Sequence record: PP925827.1
Reading direction: 5' to 3' (one strand)
Origin: Escherichia phage Flotzy
Length of the DNA stretch: 42,657 bases
Shown here: positions 38,622 through 41,882 of the stretch, piece by piece
How the letters are laid out: every line of letters starts with the position of its first letter
Position numbering within the stretch: position 1 is the stretch's first letter
Notes under the pieces: generated by a model
The model's input: the letters and a program-made list of their open reading frames with translations, nothing else
Told to the model about the DNA's origin: nothing
Databases searched by the model: none
Position numbers and translations under genes: made by a program

Positions 38622-39952
38622 ATGAAAATAAATACTGCCGCGCGCTGGCTGAACTGCGTTCAAGACCAGCCCACGAGTTGAAAGAGGTCGGCGATCAATG
38701 GCGCACTCCGGATCTGTTGTTTTGGGGTATCAATGCGATGTTCGGCCCTCTGGTGTTGGACCTTTTTGCCGACGACAGCAACGCGAAGTGCCCAGCATGG
38801 TACACGGCTGAAGATAATGCCCTGACGCAGGATTGGTCAGAGCGTCTTGCAGAACTCGGTGGTGCCGGGTTTGGCAACCCGCCTTACAGCCGCTCTCAGT
38901 ACCACGACAAGCAGGCCGTTACCGGAATGACCCACATCATTAACCACGCTATGGCAATGCGAGAAAAGGGTGGTCGGTACGTTTTTCTCATTAAGTCTGC
39001 GACGAGTGAGACGTGGTGGCCGGAAGAGGCAGATCACGTCACATTCATCCGTGGCCGAATTGGTTTCGATCTTCCTAAATGGTTCGTGCCGAAAGACGAA
39101 AAGCAGCAGCCCACCAGCGCTTTTTTTGCTGGCGCTATCGTGGTCTTCGACAAAACATGGCGGGGTGAACGTTTCAGTTACATCAACCGCACTGATCTGG
39201 AGGCCAAAGGCCGTGCTTCGATGTCGCTGGCCCATTTTGCAGTGGGCAGAACGCAAACTGATGCGGCGCCGGAGCTGGACGCTGAGGTAGTGCCGGAGAA
39301 ATCAGAGGCAGAACTGCCATTAACCCAAAAATCCATTCTGGAAACCAGTGGTGTAGAGGCTTGGGCCTGTGTTGTCGCGGCGTTCGGCGAGAAAGATGAG
39401 TACACCTTCAGCGAGTCAAAGTTTGGTCATACCTGGGCTGCCGACTCTTTGGATAACCCTGAATTTACCAATGTTTCGCCGCTGACGATCGACAGAGCGA
39501 AAAAGCTGATCAGCGAGAGCATCCTGGTGGGTGTTAATGCATGGCTGGAAACATTGCCCTTTGATAGCGATGACGTGAAACAAGACATGTCAGAGCGGTT
39601 ACGCACGGTTGCCGTTGAGTCTGCGAAAGAATACGGCATTAACCACAGTGAATTCATCGCGACCATGGAAAGCCTGGATAAAGCCAAATGGTCAAATATT
39701 CGGGGGATCCGCGCCTATGTCCGTGAGACGCAGGAATCAAAGGACAAGGCGTTAAACGAATCGCGCGTTTGGCCTCTTGAGGTTGGACTGGTGTTTAACC
39801 AGATTGAAGGGGCTGACGCTCTACCTGTTTCACAGCAGAACAAGCTGAAAGCCAATATCAACCAGCTGTGGCTCGAACGTATGCCGACGAGTGAAATTAT
39901 CACGACCGCTGGTGGTCTCTTCAACAGCATGCAGGGGGCCGTCAATGCGTGA
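38618..39952 (+). CDS. phage Dam-like N6-adenine DNA methyltransferase fused to ~260-aa C-terminal domain of unknown function
   Basis: N-terminal WRTP and NPPY (GFGNPPYS) motifs; start overlaps O-like stop (ATGA). Confidence 0.7.
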   Translation: MNENKYCRALAELRSRPAHELKEVGDQWRTPDLLFWGINAMFGPLVLDLFADDSNAKCPAWYTAEDNALTQDWSERLAELGGAGFGNPPYSRSQYHDKQAVTGMTHIINHAMAMREKGGRYVFLIKSATSETWWPEEADHVTFIRGRIGFDLPKWFVPKDEKQQPTSAFFAGAIVVFDKTWRGERFSYINRTDLEAKGRASMSLAHFAVGRTQTDAAPELDAEVVPEKSEAELPLTQKSILETSGVEAWACVVAAFGEKDEYTFSESKFGHTWAADSLDNPEFTNVSPLTIDRAKKLISESILVGVNAWLETLPFDSDDVKQDMSERLRTVAVESAKEYGINHSEFIATMESLDKAKWSNIRGIRAYVRETQESKDKALNESRVWPLEVGLVFNQIEGADALPVSQQNKLKANINQLWLERMPTSEIITTAGGLFNSMQGAVNA

Positions 39953-41882
39953 AATTATCGTTGATAACTTTGCTGGTGGCGGCGGCGCGAGTACCGGCAT
40001 TGAACTGGCGATCGGGCGTAGCGTGGATATCGCTATCAACCACGACGAAAACGCTATTGCGATGCATAAGACCAATCACCCGGACACACTGCATTATTGC
40101 GAGTCGGTGTTTGACGTTGACCCAAGCGCAGCCACCAGCGGTAAACCTGTCGGTCTGGCCTGGTTTAGCCCTGACTGCCGCCACTTTTCCAAAGCGAAGG
40201 GCGCTAAGCCGGTTAAGAAAGAGATTCGCGGGCTGGCGTGGATTGTCCTGCGCTGGGCGCTGGCAGTACGTCCCCGCGTCATGATGCTGGAGAACGTCGA
40301 AGAATTTAAGACATGGGGCCCGCTACTGGAGGAAGAATTACGCCCGGATCCTGAGCGTGCAGGTGAAACATTCGAGGCATTTGTCGGCATGCTGTCGACT
40401 GGTATCGCGGCGAATCACCCAGCACTGGCTGAGGTTTGTGAATTTCTTGCCATTGAGCCGCACGGCCAGCAGGCGCAACAGCTGATCGCCGGGCTTGGCT
40501 ATGAGGTCGATTATCGTGAGCTGCGCGCTTGTGACTACGGCGCGCCGACGATCAGAAAGCGTTTCTTCATGGTCATGCGCTGTGACGGCCGCAAGATTCA
40601 TTGGCCTGAAGCGACTCATGGGGATCCAAAATCACTGGAAGTACAAAGCGGCAAGCTGGCGCCATGGCGTACCGCGGCGGAGTGCATTGACTGGAACATC
40701 CCGGCCCGGTCCATCTTCGACCGCAAAAAGCCGCTGGCGGAAAATACGCTCAAACGTATCGCGCGCGGCATCCAGCGCTTTGTTATCGAAAGCGCATCGC
40801 CTTTCATCGTGAAGTGTAACCACACCACGACGAAAGGAGGTTATGACTGTTTCCGCGGGCAATCGTTGTTAGAGCCATTGCAGACCATCACTAAAAAGCA
40901 TGGCTACGCGCTGGCGGTACCGCATCTTACTAAATTCCGCACCGGGGCCACCGGGCAGCCAGTGACCGAGCCGGTTCCAACTGTCACCGCTGGTACGTCG
41001 GCGCGCCCGGGCGGGAATGGGCATGCGCTTGGCGTAGTTGAGGCCGCCCTGACACCGTTCCTGGCTGGCAATGGCGGCAGTGAGTACCAGGCAAAGCCGC
41101 GCCCACTGGATAAACCCGCTCATACAATCCTCAAGCAGTCCCGCGCGTGCGTGGTTGCGCCGGTCATCGCCCGCCAGTTTGGCGCCAGTGTTGGGCACAG
41201 GGCTGACGAACCGAGCGCGACGATTACTGCAGGTGGTGGCGGTAAGTCGCAGCTGGTAACTCCAACACTGATCCAGATGGGGTACGGCGAACGCCCAGGG
41301 CAAGAACCGCGTGTTCTTCAACTGAATAACCCGCTCGGCACGGTCACTGCTGGTGGTAATAAGTTTGCAACGGTGAGCGCGTTCCTGGCGAAGCACTATG
41401 GTGGGAATTACACGGGGCCGGGTGTTGGTATGGATGAGCCTGCCCACTCAGTCACTACTGTTGATCACCACGCGGTAGTTGCGTCGCACCTGGTGAAACT
41501 GCGCGGAACCTGCCGCGACGGTCAGACGATGGATACTCCTATGCCGACTATTACCGCTGGTGGCCAGCACGTTGGCGAGGTCCGGACATTCCTCGAAACA
41601 TACTGCGGTGATAGCGAGGATGAATGGCTGGTGACGATCGAGGGGGTTAAGTACCAGATCGTCGATATCGGAATGCGCATGCTGCAACCGCATGAGCTTT
41701 ATAAGGCGCAGGGCTTCCCTGACGGCTACGTTATCGATCAGGACTATCGCGGCAATCGTTACGCCAAAGACAAGCAGGTAGCGCGCTGCGGTAACGCAGT
41801 ACCGCCGCCGTTCGCTCGTGCGCTGGTAGAAGCAAATCTTCCTGAATTATGTGCAAATCAAAAGGCGGGTGCAGCCGCCTGA
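39945..41882 (+). CDS. DNA (cytosine-5) methyltransferase with repeated C-terminal modules
   Basis: Motif I FAGGGG, catalytic Cys motif SPDCRHFSKAKG, ENV motif, RKRFF; four PxxT(V/I)TAGG repeats. Confidence 0.8.
   Translation: MREIIVDNFAGGGGASTGIELAIGRSVDIAINHDENAIAMHKTNHPDTLHYCESVFDVDPSAATSGKPVGLAWFSPDCRHFSKAKGAKPVKKEIRGLAWIVLRWALAVRPRVMMLENVEEFKTWGPLLEEELRPDPERAGETFEAFVGMLSTGIAANHPALAEVCEFLAIEPHGQQAQQLIAGLGYEVDYRELRACDYGAPTIRKRFFMVMRCDGRKIHWPEATHGDPKSLEVQSGKLAPWRTAAECIDWNIPARSIFDRKKPLAENTLKRIARGIQRFVIESASPFIVKCNHTTTKGGYDCFRGQSLLEPLQTITKKHGYALAVPHLTKFRTGATGQPVTEPVPTVTAGTSARPGGNGHALGVVEAALTPFLAGNGGSEYQAKPRPLDKPAHTILKQSRACVVAPVIARQFGASVGHRADEPSATITAGGGGKSQLVTPTLIQMGYGERPGQEPRVLQLNNPLGTVTAGGNKFATVSAFLAKHYGGNYTGPGVGMDEPAHSVTTVDHHAVVASHLVKLRGTCRDGQTMDTPMPTITAGGQHVGEVRTFLETYCGDSEDEWLVTIEGVKYQIVDIGMRMLQPHELYKAQGFPDGYVIDQDYRGNRYAKDKQVARCGNAVPPPFARALVEANLPELCANQKAGAAA

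What the first reader, a model, noticed from the sequence alone, without database searches (positions are those of the whole stretch)
39945..41882. C5-cytosine methyltransferase with four repeated PxxT(V/I)TAGG modules
After the canonical C5 motifs (FAGGGG, Cys motif, ENV, RKRFF) the protein contains four spaced repeats (PVPTVTAGT, PSATITAGG, PLGTVTAGG, PMPTITAGG). Repeated modules in a phage C5-methyltransferase are reminiscent of multispecific enzymes that carry several target-recognition domains and protect against multiple restriction systems.
Basis: partly seen in the sequence, partly recalled or inferred. Interest (0 to 1): 0.55.

Follow-up and report, generated by a model that had tools for sequence, protein, structure and literature searches.

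The report
Phage cytosine methyltransferase with seven recognition modules
This temperate-phage gene encodes a DNA cytosine-C5 methyltransferase whose one catalytic domain carries a tandem array of seven short modules resembling DNA target-recognition domains, so it probably methylates several different DNA sequences and shields the phage from many restriction enzymes; 42-46% identical enzymes are already reported to have 'relaxed specificity'.

Summary
The 645-aa protein (39945-41882, +) is a C5-cytosine methyltransferase. Its region between motifs VIII and IX is about 360 aa. The four P..T[VI]TAG repeats are there (expected 0.004 by shuffling). With three degenerate copies they make seven modules of 32-48 aa, plus a remnant of an eighth.

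The modules share their core with the mapped target-recognizing domains (TRDs) of the multispecific Bacillus phage enzymes SPR, phi3T, rho11s and H2. That similarity is at motif level only.

Near-identical homologues differ by clean in-register gain or loss of single modules. In 270 relatives there are 1-12 modules, of 416 types, in shuffled order. The array is under stronger purifying selection than the catalytic domain.

Full-length relatives have 5-8 modules. Those from Aeromonas ARM81 phages are reported as 'relaxed specificity'. The tested Paracoccus aminophilus prophage enzymes, known here only through a 69%-identical homologue, partly protected DNA from 16 of 28 restriction enzymes. That pattern fits no single simple rule.

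Best reading: a multispecific anti-restriction methyltransferase. It is a new member of a known kind. The modular explanation was absent from the three papers on this family that I read. No methylation data exist for this protein, and AlphaFold could not model the array.

The parts
39945..41882 (+). Whole gene for the C5-cytosine DNA methyltransferase: 645 aa plus stop.
   Evidence: ORF. PF00145 at 74 bits. 98-99% identical genes in Escherichia phage Eeyore and in 12 E. coli chromosomes, annotated 'DNA cytosine methyltransferase'.
39945..40589 (+). N-terminal part of the catalytic domain, aa 1-215. Motif I is FAGGGGAS (9-16). Motif IV is SPDC, with catalytic Cys78. Motif VI is ENV (116-118). 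Motif VIII is TIRKRFF (202-208).
   Evidence: AlphaFold pLDDT above 90. Foldseek matches 3g7u, DNMT1, M.HaeIII and M.HhaI at E 1e-11 to 1e-8.
40590..40850 (+). Conserved segment between motif VIII and the module array, aa 216-302.
   Evidence: Invariant or nearly invariant across close and distant relatives. Mostly pLDDT above 89 up to about aa 290, then falling.
40851..40937 (+). Module 1, aa 303-331, degenerate core PLQTITKK at aa 311.
   Evidence: Module HMM 33.4 bits. Present in all close homologues.
40947..41027 (+). Module 2, aa 335-361, core PVPTVTAGT at aa 343.
41097..41177 (+). Module 3, aa 385-411, degenerate core PAHTILKQ at aa 391.
   Evidence: P0026-type homologues lack exactly this module, a 35-aa deletion of aa 373-407.
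41187..41273 (+). Module 4, aa 415-443, core PSATITAGGGG at aa 423.
   Evidence: Absent from P0083, a 34-aa deletion of aa 403-436.
41319..41396 (+). Module 5, aa 459-484, core PLGTVTAGG at aa 463.
   Evidence: Absent from the 605-629-aa homologues, a 39-aa deletion of aa 438-476. The same module type occurs at positions 1 to 6 of the array in 17 distant relatives.
41415..41501 (+). Module 6, aa 491-519, degenerate core PAHSVTTVDHH at aa 499.
   Evidence: 46% identical over 24 aa to DEPAFTVNTIDRHGVAI, the module shared by all four Bacillus phage enzymes. Extra 32-35-aa modules are inserted just after it in the 680-695-aa homologues.
41517..41603 (+). Module 7, aa 525-553, core PMPTITAGG at aa 532.
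   Evidence: 33.3 bits. Present in all close homologues.
41604..41672 (+). Remnant of the family's usual last module, aa 554-576 (CGDSEDEWLVTIEGVKYQIVDIG). The P..T.T core is lost and the strand leading into motif IX is kept.
   Evidence: The family consensus here is sLDEPLHTVTTKDRFGLVTVkGeeYvIVDIGMRML; the query sequence is.
41673..41843 (+). C-terminal part of the catalytic domain, aa 577-633. Motif IX is RMLQPHELYKAQGFP. Motif X is GNAVPPP.
   Evidence: pLDDT 88-98.
38618..39952 (+). Upstream, translationally coupled gene. A Dam-type N6-adenine methyltransferase domain (PF05869, aa 19-199) is followed by a 245-aa extension of unknown function.
   Evidence: The 8-nt overlap is shown. Adenine methyltransferase genes also flank the C5 gene in phiNP and F116.

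Best explanation
The gene encodes a multispecific orphan C5-cytosine DNA methyltransferase of a lambdoid temperate phage.

One catalytic domain (motifs I-VIII and IX-X) is interrupted by a tandem array of seven minimal target-recognition modules, each 32-48 aa. A module is a G...(D/E)(D/E)P..T(V/I)T(A/T) core, then a variable loop, then a short hydrophobic strand.

Inferred mechanism: for any one DNA site, one module at a time docks beside the catalytic cleft and reads the bases around the flipped-out cytosine, as proposed for the Bacillus phage enzymes SPR, phi3T, rho11s and H2. The enzyme would then methylate the sum of several short targets.

The gene sits in the early-right operon, between the replication gene and the Q antiterminator. 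It is flanked upstream by a Dam-type methyltransferase, and the phage also carries an M.EcoGII-like adenine methyltransferase. It should therefore be expressed during lytic growth and pre-methylate progeny DNA against many m5C-sensitive restriction enzymes.

Shown here: the architecture, the modular polymorphism, the selective constraint and the homology to tested enzymes.

Inferred: that several modules are active, the one-module-per-target mapping, the timing of expression and the anti-restriction role.
For: 1. It is a C5 methyltransferase with a variable region of about 360 aa between motifs VIII and IX.

2. There are seven modules where shuffling predicts about 0.07 matches to the loosest core pattern.

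3. The same core and position are seen in the mapped TRDs of SPR, rho11s, H2 and phi3T (G[LV]SPT[LI]TT..G.G, DEPAFTVNTIDRHGVA). The family's C-terminal profile aligns colinearly with the last Bacillus TRD plus motifs IX-X. hhalign of the module profile against the Bacillus TRDs puts the cores in register, at 55% probability. The module HMM's best local matches in SPR, phi3T, rho11s and M.HaeIII fall on their TRD cores.

4. Among homologues at least 78% identical there are nine architectures. They differ by whole modules: indels of 32-39 aa, one core each, with boundaries in register.

5. In 270 relatives there are 1-12 modules per protein, most often 7-8. The spacing mode is 32-33 aa. There are 416 module types, and the same type occurs at different positions in different proteins.

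6. Against Klebsiella phage Kpn_R1, dN in the array is 0.055 and in the catalytic domain 0.151, with synonymous sites saturated. Every module is kept by selection.

7. Full-length relatives were checked here for identity and module count: ARM81mr_p29 is 45.6% identical with 5 modules, ARM81ld_p31 41.6% with 5, and Pyei1_p05 42.5% with 8. The ARM81 enzymes are described as having relaxed specificity (PMC5537653). Pyei1_p05 is reported to be about 69% identical to JCM7686_0772 and JCM7686_2655 (PMC6536676). Those two enzymes gave partial protection against 16 of 28 restriction enzymes (PMC3925955 Table S6). Protected sites include AGCT, GGCC, CCWGG, CCNGG, CCGG, GCGC and ACGT. Unprotected sites include CGCG, GGNNCC, CCATGG, CCGCTC and GATC. 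Neither a 'CC' rule nor a 'GC' rule fits, but a discrete set of roughly 6-7 targets does.
Against: No methylation data exist for this protein or for any close homologue.

Sequence similarity of the modules to established TRDs is at motif level only. The hhalign probability is only 55%. A profile search of PDB sequences found no methyltransferase.

AlphaFold gave no confident structure for the array with either alignment (pLDDT below 50, about 20). So there is no structural evidence that any module docks like a TRD.

The published assays on relatives showed only partial protection, and their authors read it as 'relaxed' specificity. One relative, Phi2LM21_p23, was inactive in E. coli.

Seven or more functional specificities in one enzyme would exceed anything documented. 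From my own knowledge the maximum is 3-5, in SPR, H2 and M.BssHII.

Heavy m5C methylation would expose the phage to McrBC-type restriction in many E. coli hosts (my own knowledge).
Confidence: 0.62

Rival explanations
1. It is a relaxed, low-specificity methyltransferase. The repeat array acts collectively as a flexible DNA-binding region that holds the enzyme on DNA. Cytosines are then methylated in many loosely defined contexts, and individual modules do not encode individual targets.
For: The authors who tested relatives describe 'relaxed substrate specificity', and every protected site was only partly protected. AlphaFold predicts no fixed structure for the array. Non-specific phage methyltransferases do exist, and this phage carries a homologue of one acting on adenine.
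Against: Eleven of the 28 tested enzymes cut completely, including several with GC-rich, m5C-sensitive sites (CGCG, GGNNCC, CCGCTC, CCATGG). So methylation is selective.

A generic DNA-binding array would not need 416 distinct module types or such strict conservation of each module's sequence: dN is 0.01-0.05 in modules 2-6 against 0.15 in the catalytic domain.

Whole-module presence/absence polymorphism among near-identical enzymes points to functional units.
Confidence: 0.22
2. It is monospecific or nearly so. Only one module, probably the one nearest motif IX, acts as the TRD. The others are structural repeats or inactive pseudo-TRDs left by duplication.
For: Inactive 'pseudo' TRDs are known in rho11s (my own knowledge; searches show rho11s MGEGHREPK against phi3T MGGGHREPK). 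Three of the seven cores depart from the TAGG consensus. The last canonical module is already degenerate in this protein.
Against: All seven modules are under strong purifying selection, with synonymous sites saturated, which decaying pseudo-domains would not show. Modules are individually dispensable in nature, which argues against an interdependent structural repeat. Tested relatives with 5-8 modules protect against many unrelated sites.
Confidence: 0.1
3. The array serves a purpose other than DNA target recognition, such as binding a phage or host protein, regulation, or recognition of RNA or single-stranded DNA. The resemblance to TRD cores is then convergent.
For: The statistical support for homology between the modules and known TRDs is weak.
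Against: The array occupies exactly the TRD position. In most relatives the last module runs colinearly into motif IX, as in SPR and M.HaeIII. No other region of the protein could supply target recognition.
Confidence: 0.04

Closest known systems
Multispecific C5-cytosine methyltransferases of Bacillus phages: M.SPRI, M.Phi3TI, M.Rho11sI and M.H2I (Trautner, Noyer-Weidner and colleagues). [quoted passage not shown]
   Same: They are phage-encoded orphan C5 methyltransferases. One catalytic core carries an enlarged variable region between motifs VIII and IX. That region holds several tandem short modules, each with a P/S-T-[LIV]-T-[TA]...G core followed by a strand. The last module runs into motif IX. 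The role is anti-restriction.
   Different: Only weak local matches were found to the Bacillus enzymes, for example 26% over 27 aa at motif VIII. Motif IV is SPDC here, not PCQ. There are seven modules here, and up to 12 in relatives, against 2-4. The modules are shorter and more regular, with a period of about 33 aa. Extensive natural shuffling and presence/absence polymorphism are documented here. No specificity has been mapped to any module.
'Relaxed specificity' m5C methyltransferases of proteobacterial (pro)phages: JCM7686_0772 and JCM7686_2655 of Paracoccus aminophilus (PMC3925955), and ARM81ld_p31 and ARM81mr_p29 of Aeromonas phages (Dziewit & Radlinska 2016, cited in PMC5537653).
   Same: True full-length homologues were checked here: the ARM81 enzymes and Pyei1_p05 are 42-46% identical, E 1e-157 or better. 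Pyei1_p05 stands in for the Paracoccus enzymes, to which it is reported 69% identical. They share the N-terminal signature MREII(V/I)DNFAGGGGASTGIE...SPDC(R/K)HFSKAKG and carry module arrays of 5-8 units. Their genes lie in or next to the replication module, often beside adenine methyltransferase genes.
   Different: The module number and module types differ. In the papers I could read, the published descriptions do not mention the repeat or TRD architecture. This E. coli phage enzyme has not been tested.
M.HhaI and M.HaeIII, monospecific C5 methyltransferases with solved DNA complexes.
   Same: The catalytic fold matches (Foldseek). A single copy of the same TRD core precedes motif IX: ITLSAYGGG in M.HhaI and EPAFTVQASGRQ in M.HaeIII.
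   Different: They have one TRD of about 80-100 aa forming a folded small domain, and one target sequence.
E. coli Dcm (TIGR00675 dcm).
   Same: Same enzyme superfamily.
   Different: The score is 53 bits against a cutoff of 100.65. It is not an equivalog of Dcm.

Membership tests
C5-cytosine DNA methyltransferase (Pfam PF00145) | The profile score exceeds the curated cutoff. | tested here: met
   74 bits against 22.
C5-cytosine DNA methyltransferase (Pfam PF00145) | Conserved motifs are present in canonical order: I (FxGxG), IV (catalytic Pro-Cys), VI (ENV), VIII (RxR), IX and X (GN.V). | tested here: met
   F9-S16, SPDC with C78, E116-V118, R204/R206, R578-P592 and G616-P622. Motif IV reads P-D-C rather than P-C-Q.
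C5-cytosine DNA methyltransferase (Pfam PF00145) | Catalytic-domain fold. | tested here: met
   AlphaFold pLDDT above 90 for most of aa 1-280 and 570-630. Foldseek matches 3g7u, DNMT1, 1dct and M.HhaI.
Multispecific phage C5 methyltransferases (SPR / phi3T / rho11s / H2 type) | Several tandem, non-overlapping TRD units lie between motifs VIII and IX, each with the conserved T-[LIV] core. | tested here: met
   Seven modules. Their cores align in register with the Bacillus TRD cores, but with weak statistics.
Multispecific phage C5 methyltransferases (SPR / phi3T / rho11s / H2 type) | Individual TRDs can be removed without destroying the enzyme. | tested here: inconclusive
   Natural homologues lacking or gaining single modules are common and conserved. 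Their activity is unknown.
Multispecific phage C5 methyltransferases (SPR / phi3T / rho11s / H2 type) | Two or more distinct target sequences are methylated, each assignable to one TRD. | not testable with these tools
   Only indirect evidence: tested Paracoccus enzymes partly protect 16 different restriction sites. They are linked to the query only through a 69%-identical homologue that is itself 42.5% identical to the query.
Multispecific phage C5 methyltransferases (SPR / phi3T / rho11s / H2 type) | Sequence relatedness to the Bacillus phage enzymes. | tested here: not met
   BLASTP finds only weak local matches, the best at E 0.006-0.03 in a three-sequence database. This is a separate lineage with an analogous, possibly homologous, architecture.
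'Relaxed-specificity' proteobacterial phage m5C methyltransferases (JCM7686_0772/2655, ARM81ld_p31, ARM81mr_p29) | Full-length homology. | tested here: met
   45.6%, 42.5% and 41.6% identity over the whole length to ARM81mr_p29, Pyei1_p05 and ARM81ld_p31, with E 1e-157 or better. The JCM7686 sequences themselves were not retrieved.
'Relaxed-specificity' proteobacterial phage m5C methyltransferases (JCM7686_0772/2655, ARM81ld_p31, ARM81mr_p29) | Protection of DNA against many m5C-sensitive restriction enzymes. | not testable with these tools
   Published for relatives only.
Dcm (NCBIfam TIGR00675) | The score exceeds the curated cutoff. | tested here: not met
   53.2 bits against 100.65.

The most novel reading that the evidence does not exclude
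The array is a combinatorial cassette system. Each module of about 33 aa would be a self-sufficient mini-TRD encoding one short DNA target. In-register recombination adds, deletes and reorders cassettes, so that phages across Proteobacteria, and some Firmicutes, assemble enzymes with up to about 12 specificities from a pool of hundreds of module types. That would make the family a natural, readable 'module-to-motif' code for C5 methyltransferase specificity. It would also be far more multispecific than the Bacillus phage paradigm. I found no such description in the literature I could search.
Probability: 0.35. Interest if true: 0.7.

Novelty: new member of a known kind. Interest (0 to 1): 0.5.

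Why it matters
Multispecific C5 methyltransferases are a classic but structurally unsolved case: how does one catalytic site work with several recognition domains? They are known almost only from a few Bacillus phages.

This gene belongs to a very large family. More than 8,000 homologues were retrieved, 2,586 cluster representatives score E below 1e-30, and 97 phage records hold the array. It spans Enterobacteriaceae, Pseudomonas, Vibrio, Aeromonas and alpha- and beta-proteobacterial phages.

If each module maps to a motif, the natural presence/absence variants give ready-made deletion series for assigning specificities. The enzymes could also be used to pre-methylate DNA for transfer into restrictive hosts.

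For genome annotation, 'DNA cytosine methyltransferase' on these genes hides a probable broad anti-restriction function. This phage appears to combine it with a Dam-type enzyme and an M.EcoGII-like adenine methyltransferase.

Tried and rejected
1. AlphaFold2 with a diverse 120-sequence alignment and with a colinear 78-sequence alignment of close homologues. The array was not modelled in either (pLDDT below 50, and about 20). No conclusion about how the modules fold or dock is possible, and neither a rigid single domain nor disorder is shown.

2. A profile of 117 diverse modules searched against all PDB sequences. Only chance hits came back. The 32-position profile is too short.

3. phmmer of the last two modules plus motifs IX-X of ARM81ld_p31 against PDB. 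No hits.

4. The module HMM run on SPR, phi3T, rho11s, M.HhaI and M.HaeIII. The best local alignments fall on the known TRD cores in four of the five, with no hit in M.HhaI. Scores are about 0 bits, so this is not significant on its own.

5. DNA-level repeats in the gene. Only two 18-nt pairs at 83% identity, so the modules are old and not recent duplications.

6. Literature. Trautner 1996, Wilke 1988 and Sethmann 1999 are not held, so TRD sizes and target assignments of the Bacillus enzymes rest on my own knowledge. Dziewit & Radlinska 2016 did not appear in the ARM81 search, so I did not read it and know it only through citing papers. Three further full-text searches found no description of the repeat architecture in this family.

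7. Simple-rule readings of the published protection table ('any CC', 'any GC'). Rejected because CCATGG, CCGCTC, GGNNCC and CGCG were fully cut.

8. The idea that the ~1000-1100-aa relatives are Dam-C5 fusions. Rejected: the extra part is an intein.

9. The GTG at 39891 as start. Rejected because all homologues begin at MREII.
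Full report
**What is there**

The finding lies in one ORF, 39891..41882 on the + strand. All homologues begin at MREIIVDNFAGGGG. The start is therefore the ATG at 39945, giving 645 aa. This ATG overlaps the stop codon of the upstream gene by 8 nt (AATGCGTGA) and has AGGGGG 8 nt upstream, which suggests translational coupling.

Pfam assigns PF00145, the C-5 cytosine methylase family, at 74 bits against a cutoff of 22. NCBIfam's dcm model scores below its cutoff (53 against 100.65).

The canonical motifs are present in order. Motif I is FAGGGGAS (aa 9-16). Motif IV is SPDC, with Cys78. Motif VI is ENV (116-118). Motif VIII is TIRKRFF (202-208). Motif IX is RMLQPHELYKAQGFP (578-592). 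Motif X is GNAVPPP (616-622).

AlphaFold models the catalytic domain with pLDDT above 90. Foldseek matches it to the prophage CP-933R methyltransferase 3g7u, DNMT1/MET1, M.HaeIII and M.HhaI. About 360 residues lie between motifs VIII and IX. From my own knowledge, M.HhaI has roughly 90-100 residues there.

**The repeats**

T[VI]TAG occurs four times, against 0.004 expected from 20,000 shuffles.

Three further degenerate copies are at aa 311 (PLQTITKK), 391 (PAHTILKQ) and 499 (PAHSVTTV). A 30-residue HMM built from the family has the consensus SRGQPLDEPLPTVTAGGRHALVVAALLLKY. It scores all seven at 18-33 bits.

Over 1,251 distinct modules the conserved positions are G(-6), [LVA](-3), D(-2), E(-1), P(0), T(+3), V/I(+4), T(+5) and A/T/S(+6). 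A variable stretch follows at +7 to +11, then a hydrophobic strand at +12 to +18.

After module 7 the query keeps only the strand of the family's usual last module. It has ...EDEWLVTIEGVKYQIVDIGMRML where the consensus is ...sLDEPLHTVTTKDRFGLVTVkGeeYvIVDIGMRML.

The repetition is at protein level. The DNA holds only two 18-nt pairs at 83% identity.

**Relation to known target-recognizing domains**

I fetched the original records for the multispecific Bacillus phage enzymes SPR, rho11s, H2 and phi3T. Their variable regions contain tandem units such as NSSGLSPTITTNKGEGLKIAVE, SPDGVSPTLTTMGEGHREPKIAVE and DDEPAFTVNTIDRHGVAIGE. These have the same proline/threonine-[LIV]-threonine core, glycine-rich loop and following strand as the modules here.

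Four comparisons bear on homology:
- A profile of the family's C-terminal 170 residues aligns colinearly with SPR and phi3T, through their last TRD and motifs IX-X.
- hhalign of a 117-module profile against nine Bacillus TRDs puts the cores in register, at 55% probability.
- The module HMM's best local matches in SPR, phi3T, rho11s and M.HaeIII fall on their TRD cores, but with scores near zero.
- Query module 6 (DEPAHSVTTVDHHAVVA) is 46% identical over 24 residues to DEPAFTVNTIDRHGVAI, the module shared by all four Bacillus enzymes. From my own knowledge that module is the GGCC domain.

So homology of the modules to TRDs rests on position, motif and colinearity. It does not rest on strong statistics.

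**Evolutionary behaviour of the modules**

More than 8,000 homologues were retrieved among Enterobacteriaceae. Their lengths fall into classes of 605, 609, 626, 645, 660, 680 and 692 aa.

In an alignment of representatives the differences are clean indels of 32-39 residues. Each contains exactly one core, and the boundaries fall in the strand after a core:
- Module 3 is missing in P0026.
- Module 4 is missing in P0083.
- Module 5 is missing in the 605-629-aa forms.
- Extra modules follow module 6 in the 680-695-aa forms.

Among the query plus 120 homologues at least 78% identical there are nine architectures.

An exhaustive search of 1.84 billion cluster representatives found 2,586 proteins at E below 1e-30. 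In the best 150 plus the close set, proteins carry 1-12 modules, most often 7-8. Core-to-core spacing peaks at 32-33 aa. The modules fall into 416 types at 55% identity, and the same type occurs at different positions in different proteins. For example, the type of query module 5 is at positions 1 to 6 in 17 distant relatives.

Against the orthologue in Klebsiella phage Kpn_R1, synonymous sites are saturated (dS above 1). Yet dN is 0.055 in the array and 0.151 in the catalytic domain, and it is 0.01-0.05 in modules 2-6. The modules are therefore individually dispensable, exchangeable and strongly constrained in sequence. That is what specificity-determining cassettes should look like. It is not expected of a linker, decaying duplicates or an interdependent structural repeat.

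**Experimental evidence from relatives**

The module array occurs in 97 phage records. They include Pseudomonas F116, Pectobacterium ZF40, Myxococcus Mx4, Aeromonas phiARM81ld, Rhizobium RR1-A, Sinorhizobium phi2LM21 and a partial match in Bacillus phi105.

| Relative | Identity to query, full length | Modules found |
|---|---|---|
| ARM81mr_p29 | 45.6% | 5 |
| Pyei1_p05 | 42.5% | 8 |
| ARM81ld_p31 | 41.6% | 5 |
| Phi2LM21_p23 | 38.4% | 4, plus degenerate copies |
| F116 gp10 | 35.8% | 8 |

PMC5537653 states that the ARM81 enzymes have relaxed specificity. It also states that Phi2LM21_p23, which was inactive in E. coli, is 44% identical to JCM7686_0772 and JCM7686_2655. PMC6536676 gives about 69% identity between Pyei1_p05 and those two enzymes. 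[quoted passage not shown]

The primary data are in PMC3925955 Table S6. Partial protection was seen against 16 enzymes:
- AluI (AGCT), BsuRI (GGCC), Hin6I (GCGC), TaiI (ACGT)
- EcoRII (CCWGG), Bme1390I (CCNGG), NciI (CCSGG), HpaII and MspI (CCGG)
- PauI (GCGCGC), PvuII (CAGCTG), XhoI (CTCGAG)
- BglI, CaiI, EcoO109I and HpyF10VI

Cleavage was complete at CGCG, TCGCGA, GATC, GGNNCC, CCWWGG, CTAG, CATG, GANTC, CCGCTC, ACGCGT and CCATGG.

My reading is that no single loose rule reproduces this pattern. 'CC' fails on CCATGG, CCGCTC and GGNNCC. 'GC' fails on CGCG and ACGCGT and does not explain CCGG or ACGT. A discrete set of about six or seven short palindromic targets does reproduce it, and the closest sequenced relative has eight modules. 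This is inference, and all protection was partial.

**Context**

The window is a complete lambdoid temperate phage, close to Escherichia phage Eeyore; the gene itself is 98.4% identical. The same gene lies in prophages of 12 complete E. coli genomes.

The local gene order is cI-type repressor, cII-like gene, replication protein, Dam-type methyltransferase, this gene, Rha/KilAC antirepressor, DUF968, Q antiterminator, a PF01555 methyltransferase, then lysis genes. Adenine methyltransferase genes also flank the C5 gene in phiNP and F116.

I infer delayed-early lytic expression and an anti-restriction role.

**Verdict**

The protein is best described as a new member of a published family of broad-specificity phage m5C methyltransferases. 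Its architecture matches the multispecific, multi-TRD principle known from Bacillus phages, in a separate lineage and with more and smaller modules.

The repeat architecture, its shuffling and the selective constraint on it are not discussed for this family in the three papers on it that I read. Further full-text searches found no such description.

What remains unknown is decisive: which sequences this enzyme methylates, and whether each module confers one of them.

Noticed in passing
window 38618-39952 (+): The upstream gene has a Dam-type N6-adenine methyltransferase domain (PF05869) only at aa 19-199. The remaining 245 aa have no Pfam match. Its stop overlaps the C5 gene's ATG by 8 nt. Phage Eeyore annotates the orthologue, apparently wrongly, as 'phosphoadenosine phosphosulfate reductase'.
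   Followed up: partly
window 2029-3057 (+): This is a third methyltransferase, PF01555 N6_N4_Mtase, between the Q antiterminator and the lysis genes. It is 79% identical to the phiP27 protein and 79-82% identical to Stx2-phage homologues. PMC7556043 lists the phiP27 protein as a homologue of PhiOS31_p25 and ARM81ld_p56, adenine methyltransferases with 'extremely relaxed' specificity. The phage may therefore combine broad m6A and broad m5C methylation.
   Followed up: partly
relatives P0131, P0189, P0211, P0224 (about 990-1113 aa): These long family members carry an intein inserted at about query residue 76-77. That is inside the catalytic SPDC motif IV. The intein has a Hint domain, in some cases with a LAGLIDADG homing-endonuclease domain.
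   Followed up: partly
L007 1655-3499 (Sinorhizobium phage phi2LM21 p23): This is the one tested relative reported inactive in E. coli. In several of its modules the otherwise 99%-conserved core proline is replaced: DEQTHTITAGG, DGQAHTITASS, DEALSTITQTG, DEAMRTATVKQ. This may be coincidence, or a hint that the proline matters.
   Followed up: no
90%-identity cluster of the query protein: The cluster mixes 645-aa C5 methyltransferases with 444-aa Dam-type proteins. This is presumably a clustering artefact from fused or read-through gene calls across the 8-nt overlap.
   Followed up: no
window 41849-42589 (+): The downstream Rha / KilAC-domain antirepressor gene (PF09669 + PF03374) starts 34 nt before the methyltransferase stop. 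This suggests a tightly packed early operon.
   Followed up: no
window aa 128 and aa 548 of the protein (nt about 40328 and 41588): Some close homologues carry two other indels that are not repeat modules. One is a 21-24-aa insert after aa 128 in the catalytic domain. The other is a 17-aa insert (TLAVDxYDEQRAQQxLE) after aa 548, between module 7 and the terminal strand.
   Followed up: no
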